In this document: positions 45,293-56,602 of the stretch, piece after piece
Layout of the letters: each line of letters begins with the position of its first letter
Position numbering within the stretch: the stretch's first letter is position 1
DNA from: Stegostoma tigrinum
Lineage: Eukaryota
Direction: 5' to 3'
Length of the DNA: 64,000 nucleotides
Assembly (NCBI RefSeq): GCF_030684315.1
Contig: NC_081397.1
Coordinates: 12,610,421-12,674,420 of the forward strand
Notes under the pieces: generated by a model
The model's input: only the letters and a program-made list of their open reading frames with translations
Told to the model about the DNA's origin: nothing
The model's database searches: none
Position numbers and translations under genes: made by a program

Positions 45293-45331
45293 ATTTTAAC
45301 ACAAATGTGAAATTTTTGTTTCAGGATTATT
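45293..45331 (+). CDS. Candidate 39-nt stalk exon of an LRC-like Ig receptor
   Basis: TTCTTCTATTTTTTTTCAAG| ... |GTACGT; phase 1-1; xFNTNVKFLFQDY. Confidence 0.45.
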
Positions 45332-45595
45332 GTACGTTTTCAGAGCAAGTAACCTGGGGGGGGGTTAGCCCAGCCAGAATACCACAGAGCCAGTAGCCGC
45401 TCATACATACTCCACATTGTAGCTCACAAGGAGAAGACCTCTCCCTGGGTCAGAATTTGCATGTTCAAGCCCCACCACAGAATGTATTGATTATCATAAA
45501 AACAGACTGATTGCAAAATGAAGCAAATTTGGAATTTTCTTCATGTTAATGCCCCCCTAATTTACCAGGGCATGTTCTTTTTGTTTTCACTGAAG

Positions 45596-45715
45596 ATCAT
45601 CATTCTATTGATCAGCTATTTCGCCTGTGTCTCACAGCTGTTGTTTTGGTTCTGCTTGCAACCTTTCTTGCGTTGGAACTGAGAAATAAATCCCAGGAAC
45701 TGAAGAATATAAATG
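45596..45715 (+). CDS. Candidate transmembrane exon of an activating LRC-like receptor (Arg in TM)
   Basis: TTCTTTTTGTTTTCACTGAAG| ... ATG|GTAAGA; 120 nt, phase 1-1, open; HHSIDQLFRLCLTAVVLVLLATFLALELRNKSQELKNIN resembles OSCAR/FCAR/LILRA NLxRxxxAxLVL. Confidence 0.6.
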
Positions 45716-45939
45716 GTAAGAAGGTGTGTTGATCCTATTAATTATGATAGTTTTCTCATTTCCTTTCATACTTACATTCAAAATAAAAGATTGTGAAATT
45801 TAAAATGAGGATGTTAATACTAATTATGGGTAGACTTGCCAATATCTGAAGTTACTGTTAGTTCAATATCTTAACCTTGTGTATTTGAATATTCAAGAGA
45901 ATTTTGTAGGATATTTACAGAGCTTGAAATATTTAATAT

Positions 45940-46330
45940 TTTCTCATGGGACATGGGTATTGCTGCCAGGCCAGTATTAATTGTCCTGTTCCTAGTTGTC
46001 CCTTGAGGAGGTGGTGGTATGTGCCACTGCAGTCCATGTGCTGTAGGGTGACCCATAATGCCCTTTGAGGGTCAGTCATGATCTTATTGAATGGCAGAAA
46101 AGGCTTGATGGGTCAGATTGTTCCTATTTCCTCTGTCCTCAGGGAGCGCACTCCAGGGTTTTCAGCCAGTGACACTGAAGAAACAGGTAATATAATTCCC
46201 ATTCGAGATGGTGACTGGCTTGGAGTGGAACTTGAAGAGGGTGATATTCCAATGTATTGCCCTGGTCGAAGATGGAAGTAGTTTTGGGTTTGTAAGGAGC
46301 TGTCAAAGGATCTTGGTGAATTTCTGCTGT
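45940..46330 (-). mobile_element. LINE 3' tail fragment (tail shared with the 21420-type SINE), with a CR1 tail piece inside
   Basis: CATGGGTATTGCTGCCAGGCCAGTATTAATTGTCC...GAGGAGGTGGTGG motif. Confidence 0.5.
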
Positions 46331-46595
46331 ACATCTTATGCAGAGTTAACATTTTGAGCCCATGACGCCCCTTCAAAATAATTCTGGGAAATTTTGTCAA
46401 ATGAATGTTTCCTCTTTTCCCTTTTCCTGACAAAGGGATCTGCTCCTTGCATTGAAAGTTCTATTTGACAATTTCTGATGACAATGAAATGAACAGTTGT
46501 TTTGTAGTTTTGAAAAGTCCGAACCAAATTTCAAACAGGTTTTAGACAATGAATGCTTGGGAATGATTTTTTAAATCTCTTTTTTTTCCTGCAAG

Positions 46596-46657
46596 TCCAA
46601 CGATGTCCAGGGGCAACATCACAGACAGAACAATCAATTCCTTCAGTGGTTCAATAA
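46596..46657 (+). CDS. Candidate terminal exon (short Tyr-less cytoplasmic tail)
   Basis: Polypyrimidine TCTCTTTTTTTTCCTGCAAG|; in phase with the TM exon: VQRCPGATSQTEQSIPSVVQ*; AATAAA at ~46772 and ~46783. Confidence 0.45.
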
Positions 46658-53299: not shown

Positions 53300-53545
53300 A
53301 GAAACGCTACTGTGTGGAAACAGGCCCTTTGGCCCAACAAGTCAACACTGACCCTTGGAGCATCCCACCCAGACAGAGCTCCCCTTATAAAACACCTGGG
53401 ATACACATCCCTGAACACTACGGGTAATTTGGCATGGCCAATCCACCCACCCTGCACATCTTTGGACTGTGTGAGGAAATCGGAGCACGGAGGAAACTCA
53501 TGCAGACATGGGCAGAATGTGCAAACTCCGTACAGTCGCCCGAGG
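53300..53545 (-). mobile_element. HE1-like V-SINE, nested in another SINE
   Basis: GCATGGCCAATCCACC...CTGCACATCTTTGGACTGTG...GAATGTGCAAACTCC. Confidence 0.8.
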
Positions 53546-54304
53546 AATTTCCAACACGAAGCTGTTTAATTCATATGTAATGTCTGCGAAAGGCTGCCCT
53601 CTAGGTTCTGGAAGCTTAATTGCAGAACTGCACACCACAGTTGAAAACCAAGCATAAAATCTTTCTTTAAACTTTAGAACAGCCTTACCAAGAAAAAATT
53701 TGAATTCAACTGAAAAGGAAGTCAGTTATTAAAAGTCTCATGATGATGATATTAATTATTGGGGAGTGACAGAAACAAATCATCTGAATCAGTTTCACCA
53801 TATTCAGTCGGAAATCTCCTGTCTAAAACTTGTCTGGCTTACATATCCCTCAGGACATGCAATGATTATGAATTTTGTACTGAACCTGTACAGAGATTAC
53901 ACAACTCTGGAGCACATGGAGCTTGAACTCAGGAATCCTGGCTCAGAGGCAGGGGCACTAACACTGTGCATAAGAAACCAGTTCATGTTTCACTTTTAAC
54001 TGTGCATTTGGGAATGGGCAGGAAATTCTGACCCAGCCAGTCAGACCCACAACCCACGTGTGCTTTTTCTTTAAAAAAAGAAGATGCAGTCCAGAATAGT
54101 TGAGCAGGACATAAAGTAAATGGTAATATTTTTTATTTGGCTGCTGGAGAGTAGCTTGAAATTGGTCTGCAATACACACAAATACCACTGAGAGCATGAA
54201 TACAATTAGCCTATTGTTGATTCTGAACTTTAGACACAGCTTACCACAACGTGGCATTTGTGCACATACAAAAATCAAACATCTATTACAACTGAGGAAC
54301 AAAC

Positions 54305-54540
54305 AAAAAAGTTGCTGGAAAAGCTCAGCAGGTCTGGCAGCATCTGTGGAGGAGAAAACAGAGTTAACGCTTTGGGTCTGGTGACCATTCCTCAGAACTT
54401 CCTCTAAACAGTTCTGAGGAAGGGTCACCAGACCGCAAACGTTAACTCTGTTTTCTCCTCCACAGATGCTGCCAGACCTGCTGAGCTTTTCCAGCATCTT
54501 TTTTTTTGTTCCAGAAATTTAGAACATCTGCAGTTCTTTT
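54305..54540. mobile_element. Palindromic Penelope-derived element, second subfamily
   Basis: Long inverted repeat GCTGGAAAAGCTCAGCAGGTCTGGCAGCATCTGTGGAGGAGAAAACAGAGTTAACG and its complement; CTGAGGAAGGGTC core; related single arms at ~9015, 20570, 35470, 37655 and 52260. Confidence 0.75.
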
Positions 54541-55239
54541 GCTTCTTTTTACTACTGAGGACCTGGTTTCCTTGAGACAAAAGGGAGATTTTTTTTGTCA
54601 AGCAACAGTCTTTCACAACTGAATAAAATGGATCGGACTAATTAGGTACTTCATAAGCCAATAAAAATGGGAACAGGAATAGGCCATTCAGGCCCTTGAG
54701 CCTGCCCCACCTGACATTCCTCACGTCCACTTTCCTGTCTTCTCGCTCACTTCATTGACTGATCAAGAATCTATTTATCTCGCACTTCAATGTACACAAG
54801 GTCTCTGCCCGCACATCTCTCTGTGGCAAGGAGTTCAAAGAATCACAACTCTCTGAGAGAAGAAATTCCTCATTGTTTCAGTCTTAAATTGGTGTTCTTT
54901 TATGCTGAGACTGTGCCTCTGAGCTTTACCAGAACCACACCCTACCCAGTTAGTGTTATGTAAAACTGAAATGATATCTGCTATTTGAAGTCAATCAGCT
55001 TTAGTGCCTTTATTATCAGTTGCAACACCTCTGCAAGCCATTATCTACTTTCTAAGCGATCAACACTCTCCTCTCCTACAGGATAAATATTGTTCTTCTT
55101 CAAAATTGCCCTCAGGAGTGCATGAGGATTATCTTCAAAAATGTGTGAATTTTATTCTGAAATTCTTTGACAAATAGAAATTGAAGGTGTTAATACCTGG
55201 ATTATTCTTACAAAGAAAGATCATAGAAGAATAGAAGGG

Positions 55240-55406
55240 AGATAACAAGGTGTGGAGCTGGATGAACACAACAGGCCAAGCAGCATCTCAGGGAGCACAA
55301 AAGCTGACGTTTCGGGCCTAGACCCTTCTAGGCCCGAAACGTCAGCTTTTGTGCTCCTGAGATGCTGCTTGGCCTGCTGTGTTCATCCAACTTCACACTT
55401 TATTAT
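55240..55406. mobile_element. Palindromic Penelope-derived insertion (copy 2 only)
   Basis: GCTGACGTTTCGGGCCTAGA-CCCT-TCTAGGCCCGAAACGTCAGC symmetric centre. Confidence 0.8.
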
Positions 55407-56566
55407 CATAAATTGAACGGTTGGTTCTTTTTAACTGCCGAAGCGTGCATGCAAGGAAGGTGCTAGAGAGAAGCTGTGTGTGCCTTATATTGTATCTAGC
55501 CTTAGGTTCAACGGTTGACTTGGTGAAATTTCAGATAAATAAATCCCAGGTCATAAGAAAGCAGTGAATGTTTCTCGGATCCAGCTGGAACATTTTACAT
55601 GGCCCAGTGACCACAGGATCCAACCAAATATAATTCCATGTGTCTGTGATACAACACATTGGTTCAAGCATTCCATAAGGTCCTGCACTCATTGTTATAA
55701 CAGTTTTCAAACTGGCAAATTTATTTTCTTTTAGTTCATTACTTTAAGTTGTGCCTACCTGACTACCATTTGTGGTAGATGTGATCAAAGAGGTCTGAGT
55801 TGAAATCATTAACATTAATTAGATTACCTTACTGTTTAGCTTAGCTGTGCTAAAGGTACAAATTTAATAATAACTTGTTCATTCCCATTCAAGTTATAAA
55901 CTTGGTTTTGGGTATCTGTTATTAGTCATAGTCTTAGAGATGTGCCACAGAATAGACCTGTCAATCCAACTTATCCATGCCGAACAAATATCCAAAATTA
56001 TTCTGTTCGCATTTGCCAGCATTGACCCCTATCCCTCAAAACCCTTCCTGGCCATGACTTTTAAATGTTTTAATTGTAAAAACCCCTACCACTTCCTTTG
56101 GCAACTCATTCCACACATGCCCCACTCTGTGTGTGAAAAAGTTGACCCCTCAGGTCCCTTATTTATCTTTCCACTCTCAGCTTCATCCTACACCAGATAG
56201 ATTTGGAATCCCCTACCCTGAGGAAAGATCTTTTGCTATTCACCCTGTCCATGCCATATTCACATCCAAATCATTCATTTAAATAACTAAAAAGCACTGG
56301 ACAAAGCACTGATTCTTGTGATCTTAGTGTTTAGTTGGGAACAATGGGACAATTTTGAGATTCATTGAATATTTTAATTTCACTATGCCGTGAATCCAGT
56401 GATAGTGAGACTGATTTAGCTTGGCTTGCTGTCTTTGTGTCCTTACCAAGAGTAATTACACTGTCAGGTTTTTGTCTGACAAGGCACTTCATGGGAATTA
56501 AAATCTGAAATCTGTCCCTGATCCATACCACCCTGAATCTGGCATTCTGGTATTCAGAATACTTAC

Positions 56567-56602
56567 CCTGTGCTTGGTGTTCAGGAACAAGACTAGGTGT
56601 TG
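56567..56602 (-). CDS. Candidate 36-nt leader mini-exon of an LRC-like Ig receptor
   Basis: TGTGTTGTTTTGCAG| 36 nt |GTAAGT; phase 1-1; xTPSLVPEHQAQG resembles FCAR LCLGQRIQAQE and LILR LSLGPRTHVQAG. Confidence 0.55.

What the first reader, a model, noticed from the sequence alone, without database searches (positions are those of the whole stretch)
45293..56602. Hidden cluster of LRC-type (LILR/OSCAR/FCAR-like) Ig-receptor exons in a shark ZNF/histone region
Seen: small phase-1 exons with canonical AG/GT boundaries in non-TE DNA, forming two convergent genes. The + gene has a 39-nt stalk, a 120-nt TM exon and a tail exon. The - gene has a 36-nt mini-exon, a 120-nt TM exon and a tail exon. Established: LRC receptors (KIR, LILR, FCAR, NCR1, LAIR) split the leader with a 36-bp mini-exon, many have a short stem exon, and activating members carry a DYT..NLxR TM motif; the human LRC lies among C2H2-ZNF clusters. 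Inference: this is a partly decayed LRC-like family in a cartilaginous fish, where I know of no well-described LRC.
Basis: partly seen in the sequence, partly recalled or inferred. Interest (0 to 1): 0.85.

Follow-up and report, generated by a model that had tools for sequence, protein, structure and literature searches.

The report
Orphan anchor of shark LRC-like receptor
One of the reported exons is a real but stranded, likely dead copy of the membrane anchor of a shark immune-receptor gene found elsewhere in the genome; that parent gene and its neighbours carry hallmarks of the mammalian KIR/LILR receptor family, which two reviews say sharks lack.

Summary
Partly right. The + strand 120-nt exon (45596-45715) encodes a real transmembrane helix with an arginine. 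It is a copy of the last exon of an annotated zebra-shark gene on contig C53 (P0009: split leader with a 36-nt exon, five SRCR domains, one LILR-type Ig domain, arginine anchor), conserved in bamboo and sevengill sharks. Window 45002-64000 is a 70-76% duplicate of that gene's 3' end and flank, re-amplified to at least eight copies on C56. No Ig or SRCR exon lies in the window, so this copy is likely a pseudogenic fragment. The 39-nt stalk and the whole minus-strand gene are not supported: splice sites are not conserved, such exons occur by chance, and their order comes from a tandem duplication. The wider inference holds better than the local one: C53 and C56 carry LRC-type paired receptors (36-nt leader exon, ITIM or Arg/His anchors) interleaved with FCRL-like and CD22-like exons, and an FcR-gamma-like exon exists. 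LRC synteny was not shown, the arginine anchor is not LRC-specific, and no RNA was available. This scan noted the SRCR-Ig family before on another shark genome (e1-9196086).

The parts
45596..45715 (+). Transmembrane exon, 120 nt, phase 1, with membrane arginine (QLFR); copy of the last coding exon of the C53 SRCR-Ig receptor gene; the parent's stop codon reads CAG here
   Evidence: 21 of 32 residues identical to P0009, 22 of 32 to P0007, 15 of 32 to P0011
45569..45595 (+). In-frame upstream acceptor extension (27 nt); the only AG acceptor left in the five 85-87% copies
45002..64000 (+). Segmental duplicate of C53:16939003-16919905 (3' end and flank of the parent gene), mostly 68-78% identical; 99.95% and 99.97% copies at C56 12.42 and 12.22 Mb
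47278..60697 (+). Internal tandem duplication: 47278-51312 matches 55405-60697 at 69-81%; it creates the apparent mini-exon-then-TM order on the minus strand
45293..45331 (+). Claimed 39-nt stalk exon: not supported
   Evidence: donor not conserved in 3 of 3 aligned paralogues, partly deleted on C53; chance level; P0009 has no stalk exon
46596..46657 (+). Possible tail exon (20 codons, AATAAA at 46771 and 46783): unconfirmed
   Evidence: read from the sequence; stop after two codons in the 90% copy, no counterpart on C53; 97% identical block between copies
52745..52864 (-). Best fit to the claimed minus-strand TM exon: open, weakly hydrophobic, no arginine; unconfirmed
   Evidence: absent from C53, but open with both splice sites in the 90% copy examined, in a 97-98% block
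56567..56602 (-). Claimed 36-nt mini-exon: not supported
   Evidence: found only in the 3 near-identical copies; donor lost on C53; unlike the family's real 36-nt leader exons

Best explanation
The + exon is a stranded, likely non-functional copy of the arginine-bearing membrane anchor of an SRCR-plus-Ig receptor gene on C53, carried to C56 inside a segmental duplication and then multiplied. Shown: source gene, extent of the duplicated block, copy number, lack of an ectodomain exon in the window. Inferred: the parent works as an activating leukocyte receptor. Its SRCR and LILR-type Ig domains would bind ligand, it has no tail (stop four residues after the helix), and its arginine would pair with the aspartates of an FcR-gamma or CD3-zeta dimer, which would supply the ITAM. 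ITIM-bearing two-Ig receptors of the same cluster would be the inhibitory counterparts. The stalk and the minus-strand gene are most likely chance splice-site pairs.
For: The C53 match is the C-terminus of P0009 (RefSeq XP_048379655). The same anchor ends P0007 (Chiloscyllium punctatum) and P0011 (Heptranchias perlo). Window 45002-64000 is collinear with C53 16939003-16919905. Three different upstream contexts occur among the copies: N and repeats in the window, a frameshifted Ig exon 1.1 kb upstream in 2 copies, an FcR-type exon 4.6 kb upstream in the 3 of 5 85-87% copies fetched that far. The broken Ig exon derives from C53 16915.5-16914.9 kb, downstream of the anchor in the source, so it is a duplication junction and not an ancestral gene. 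The acceptor AG is GG in 5 of 5 of the 85-87% copies, also seen in sequencing contigs. The exon is no better conserved against C53 (75.8%) than its flanks (71.5-75.8%). FcR-gamma-like and CD3-zeta-like TM exons lie on C59 and C14 (which is which is recalled). CD89 binds FcR-gamma through such an arginine (PMC13107469, passages).
Against: The window copy keeps an open frame, both splice sites and the arginine; pN/pS against C53 is 0.184/0.355 over 32 codons, which does not exclude constraint. The 1.3 kb directly upstream is mostly N. Blocks at 46502-46750, 50502-50750 and 52502-53000 are 96-98% identical between copy classes against about 90% elsewhere, which could be selection or conversion. 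The parent gene is a RefSeq model; its expression and adaptor binding were not tested.
Confidence: 0.75

Rival explanations
1. Some C56 copies are live chimeric genes: exon shuffling placed the arginine anchor behind an FcR-type Ig exon, giving a small activating FCRL like the Xenopus XFL-TM1 receptors.
For: In 3 fetched 85-87% copies an open FcR-type Ig exon lies 4.6 kb upstream on the same strand; an in-frame upstream acceptor is kept; XFLs have this design (PMC2413239, passages).
Confidence: 0.15
2. Two convergent, partly decayed LRC-type genes lie in the window, as first read.
For: AG/GT strings of 39, 120, 36 and 120 nt exist with open frames; the minus 120-nt candidate stays open in a 97% block of the paralogue.
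Against: No Ig exon between or upstream of them; stalk and mini-exon splice sites not conserved; on C53 the mini-exon region lies downstream, not upstream, of the minus TM region; chance rates 0.2-6 per 12 kb.
Confidence: 0.06
3. On family membership: the shark receptors are not LRC orthologues but a sister branch of a common FcR/LRC ancestor that shares the modules (arginine anchor, split leader, C2 domains).
For: The anchor type is shared by LRC, FCRL and SLAM-like receptors in Xenopus (PMC6557307, PMC4536121, passages); no Ig exon within 100 kb either side of CNOT3 on C50; the sawshark member P0045 hits FCRL5 first (E 6.8e-21) and LILR/PIR-B next; P0002 alone gives no significant PDB sequence hit; SRCR domains are not part of mammalian LRC receptors (recalled).
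Against: The first 27 of 28 PDB hits of the P0009 Ig domain are LILR, PIR-B, KIR or GPVI chains but for one Fab fusion; 36-nt second leader exons in both families; Foldseek and atlas top hits OSCAR, KIR, LILR, FCAR, A1BG, IGSF1, TARM1; in a domain tree 10 of 11 shark FcR-type domains separate from them with support 97/93.
Confidence: 0.4

Closest known systems
RefSeq 'DMBT1-like' / 'M130-like' shark models P0009 (XP_048379655), P0007 (XP_072409546), P0011 (XP_067833437)
   Same: The window exon is a paralogue of their last exon (21, 22 and 15 of 32 residues identical).
   Different: The window has none of their leader, SRCR or Ig exons; the automatic names ignore the Ig domain and the anchor.
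Activating LRC receptors of group OSCAR/TARM1/FCAR/GPVI/NCR1/LILRA and IGSF1/A1BG
   Same: Parent gene: leader split with a 12-codon second exon as in FCAR (S2 = residues 12-23, PMC5351921), LILR-like C2 domain, arginine near the top of the helix, acidic residue at its end, short tail.
   Different: Asn of NxxR replaced (Q, Y or A); no DYT; SRCR domains dominate the ectodomain; synteny not shown.
Xenopus XFL (FcR-like) TM1 receptors and XILR
   Same: Same anchor type; paired activating and inhibitory forms in expanding clusters.
   Different: XFL leaders follow 30/21 nt in a fraction of genes (PMC2413239); the parent here has 46/36 nt and LRC-type, not FcR-type, Ig.
Skate MDIR receptors (lead from e1-9598217; family description recalled)
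   Same: Shark paired receptors with a charged anchor.
   Different: The parent here has SRCR and C2-type domains; not compared directly with MDIR sequences.

Membership tests
LRC (KIR/LILR/FCAR/OSCAR) receptor family | LRC-type C2 Ig domain | tested here: met
   Met for the parent gene P0009 (best E 4.8e-11 to LILRB1) and for D2 of the P0002 family (model pLDDT only 54). Absent from the window itself.
LRC (KIR/LILR/FCAR/OSCAR) receptor family | Leader split with a 36-nt second exon | tested here: met
   P0009 gene 46+36 nt, P0002 family 31+36 nt; FCAR S2 is 12 residues (PMC5351921); 36 nt for KIR/LILR is recalled. The window's minus 36-nt string is not such an exon.
LRC (KIR/LILR/FCAR/OSCAR) receptor family | NxxR transmembrane motif with DYT consensus | tested here: inconclusive
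   Arg and terminal Glu present, Asn and DYT absent; 6-9 of 32 identities to 4 reptile anchors; profile without direct orthologues gives E 0.63-0.71. Motif definition from PMC6557307.
LRC (KIR/LILR/FCAR/OSCAR) receptor family | Paired inhibitory members with ITIMs | tested here: met
   P0002, P0003, P0005 have a neutral anchor and a VTYAAL/VTYADL tail; P0021 has the same ectodomain type with a His anchor. 31 of 148 family hits have an ITIM-like motif, 7 an Arg motif.
LRC (KIR/LILR/FCAR/OSCAR) receptor family | Synteny with TTYH1, LENG8, CNOT3, PRPF31, RPS9 | tested here: inconclusive
   CNOT3 on C50, no Ig exon in the 200 kb around it; Tweety hits only on C26 and C27; PRPF31 and RPS9 searches found nothing; LENG8 not searched. 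A CD22/CEACAM-like exon lies on C53 0.2 Mb from LRC-type exons.
LRC (KIR/LILR/FCAR/OSCAR) receptor family | Association with FcR-gamma and leukocyte expression | not testable with these tools
   Adaptor exon present; no RNA holder listed; binding not modelled.
FcR / FCRL / XFL family | FcR-type D1-D5 Ig domains in the gene that owns this anchor | tested here: not met
   The source gene has SRCR and LILR-type domains. FcR-type exons belong to neighbouring genes.
Group B SRCR receptors (DMBT1/CD163/WC1 type) | Tandem SRCR domains, one per exon | tested here: met
   Parent P0009 has 5 Pfam SRCR matches on separate exons; none in the window. Orthology to DMBT1 or CD163 not tested.
Functional gene in the window | Leader and ectodomain exons in cis, spliced transcript | tested here: not met
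   None found in readable sequence; 43687-45001 mostly N; transcripts untested.

The most novel reading that the evidence does not exclude
Sharks have a true LRC-type paired receptor system, with activating SRCR-Ig mosaics signalling through FcR-gamma and inhibitory ITIM partners, interleaved on small chromosomes with FCRL-like and CD22-like genes. That would date both the LRC and FcR families to the root of jawed vertebrates, preserve their proposed common ancestral cluster, and show the arginine anchor exon still being shuffled onto new ectodomains by segmental duplication.
Probability: 0.45. Interest if true: 0.8.

Novelty: new variant of a known kind. Interest (0 to 1): 0.55.

Why it matters
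A 2014 survey found no FcRL, FcR-gamma or C2-only LRC homologues in sharks (PMC4016189), a 2026 review repeats that FcR-like molecules are lacking (PMC13337447), and the origin of the LRC is called unclear (PMC6557307). This genome holds all three kinds of exon, and names specific genes to test for antibody or microbe binding. The window itself adds little beyond a snapshot of the anchor exon being moved by duplication. Automatic annotation already names some shark members OSCAR-like or TARM1-like, and one relevant paper could not be read.

Tried and rejected
RNA: no RNA holder listed; the 4 runs from one sample have even cover and repeat-shaped depth like DNA and showed no joint at the claimed exon borders among the rows shown, so they say nothing on expression. 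Protein search with the 40-residue TM: 12 candidates, none at E<=10 (weak). The G-locus Ig exon alone hit only titin in PDB. Pfam gave nothing for either 120-nt peptide. The idea that the broken Ig exon upstream of copies A and L001 is the anchor's own ectodomain was rejected. The idea that the C53 LILR-type exon splices straight to the anchor was rejected: two SRCR exons lie between. 53689-53818 as minus TM exon rejected: 130 nt, stop, different stop in paralogues. First mini-exon filter was too strict and was redone. Synteny searches for PRPF31 and RPS9 were blank and uninformative. No complex model and no VIA-align search were obtained. The scores against the reptile profile are partly circular, since those proteins were found with the shark profile; the tree has 96 columns and one FcR-type long branch falls among reptile rows. 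Literature: 10 searches found no description of shark LRC-type or SRCR-Ig receptors; the library lacks most subscription journals, and the 2021 Immunogenetics paper on LRC- and FcR-like regions in fish (recalled) is not held. No supplements were read.
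Full report
Observation. The window is C56:12610421-12674420 of a 3.2-Gb genome; database proteins on contigs of the same length are zebra shark. The + exon 45596-45715 is as described: 120 nt, phase 1, open, a hydrophobic helix preceded by QLFR and closed by Glu. It has 9 matches in the genome: 3 identical, 5 at 85-87%, all on C56, and 1 on C53 at 66%. 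The other claimed exons exist as AG/GT strings but at chance rates: 11 open 39-nt strings in these 12 kb, and 0.49 strong-donor 36-nt strings per 12 kb of fetched DNA. The stalk donor is GC in 3 of 3 aligned paralogues and the stretch is partly deleted on C53. The 36-nt string occurs only in the three near-identical copies and has no donor on C53. The likeliest minus TM exon, 52745-52864, has no arginine, hydropathy 2.0 and no C53 counterpart, but it stays open in the paralogue examined. No Ig or SRCR exon is readable in the window.

Source. The C53 match is the last exon of RefSeq model P0009: leader, three SRCR, one Ig, two SRCR, anchor, stop. The same anchor closes P0007 of Chiloscyllium punctatum and P0011 of Heptranchias perlo; the window peptide shares 21, 22 and 15 of 32 residues with them. 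Window 45002-64000 is collinear with C53 16939003-16919905, the gene's 3' end and flank, with an internal tandem repeat. Two other copies of the 19 kb are over 99.9% identical.

State of the copies. Upstream contexts differ. Two copies have a frameshifted Ig exon 1.1 kb upstream, which comes from downstream of the anchor on C53 and so marks a duplication junction. The three 85-87% copies fetched far enough have an open FcR-type Ig exon 4.6 kb upstream, but all five of that class read GG at the acceptor. The window copy faces N, microsatellite and a LINE. The exon is no more conserved than its flanks, and pN/pS of 0.184/0.355 is undecided. No RNA holder was listed; the four runs behave as DNA. 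I judge the window copy a likely pseudogenic fragment, with expression untested.

Family. The Ig domain of P0009 matches LILRB1, PIR-B, KIR and GPVI in PDB. Its leader is 46+36 nt; a second family (P0002, P0021) has 31+36 nt, two Ig domains and either an ITIM tail or a His anchor. FCAR's second leader exon is 12 residues (PMC5351921, passages). A profile of that family finds 432 proteins; of 148 newly listed, 102 have a TM, 31 an ITIM-like motif, 21 SRCR and 7 an Arg motif. The 10 looked up include sawshark OSCAR- and TARM1-like, horn shark DM43-like, and turtle and lizard IGSF1, A1BG and LILRA6-like entries. Atlas and Foldseek rank FCAR, A1BG, OSCAR, KIR and LILR first, on a weak model (pLDDT 54). 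In a 54-row domain tree 10 of 11 FcR-type domains and both CD22-like ones split from the rest at 97/93; the branch joining shark and reptile LRC-type domains is weaker (88/61). [quoted passage not shown]

Mechanism. Shown: duplication origin and parent architecture. Inferred from CD89 and related receptors (PMC13107469, passages): the tail-less parent recruits an FcR-gamma or CD3-zeta dimer through its arginine; exons for both adaptors are present. Ligands are unknown; microbial surfaces for the SRCR domains is a recalled analogy.

Novelty. PMC4016189 and PMC13337447 (passages) state that FcRL, and in the first also FcR-gamma and C2-only LRC homologues, are absent from cartilaginous fish; PMC9652883 (passages) says nothing on sharks. 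Ten searches found no description of these receptors, in a library that lacks most subscription journals; one likely relevant 2021 paper is not held. The gene models are public under generic names. This scan noted the SRCR-Ig family on another genome (e1-9196086, seen after my own result) and an FCRL array on this contig (e1-9367851). Verdict: the window holds one genuine orphan exon, not a two-gene cluster; the family it points to is a new variant of a known kind. Interest 0.55.

Noticed in passing
G000:C56:12683310-12731900 (9-57 kb past the window's end); C53:16334952-16367602: Arrays of open FcR-type Ig exons (PDB hits FCRL5, Fc-gamma-RI, FCRLA), one followed by a neutral TM exon. Reviews say sharks lack FCRL; see also e1-9367851.
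   Followed up: partly
G000:C56:11.48-11.52 and 12.28-12.33 Mb; C53:16.51-16.90 Mb: Paired two-Ig receptors, RefSeq 'uncharacterized': ITIM form (P0002) and a form with His in place of the anchor Arg (P0021). His can support FcR-gamma assembly in CD89 mutants (PMC13107469). Models P0001 and P0024 join both TM exons in one protein.
   Followed up: partly
L100 (C59:9569577-9569660) and L099 (C14:34316392-34316478): FcR-gamma-like and CD3-zeta-like TM exons; PMC4016189 reported no FcR-gamma in sharks. Assignment of each is recalled.
   Followed up: partly
G000:C53:5358920-5398626: Long gene or array of alternating Ig and SRCR exons, near-identical repeats; similar giant proteins in sawfish and electric ray.
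   Followed up: no
G000:C56:14262000-14293000: Array of at least 12 LRC-leaning Ig exons with a neutral TM exon.
   Followed up: no
G000:C53:16315624-16318237: CD22/CEACAM-like Ig exons 17 kb from the FCRL-like gene.
   Followed up: partly
window 24540-25034 (+), 29957-30409 (-), 32733-33179 (-): C2H2 zinc-finger exon, histone H2A and histone H2B reading frames (names recalled from the translations).
   Followed up: no
window 1-8421: 99.7% inverted copy at C56 9.928-9.936 Mb; the contig is a mosaic of very recent duplications, some of which could be assembly redundancy.
   Followed up: no
window 38809-42742 (+): Broken LINE-type endonuclease/reverse-transcriptase frames directly upstream of the N stretch (class recalled).
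   Followed up: no
window 50502-50750 and 52502-53000: Blocks 96-98% identical between copy classes against about 90% around; the first holds an Ets/Runx-like string near 50635 (motifs recalled). Conversion or constraint, unexplained.
   Followed up: partly
G000:C50:25640001-25840000: CNOT3 lies near a GPRC5-like frame and WBP11-like exons (names recalled from the translations), not near Ig receptors.
   Followed up: no
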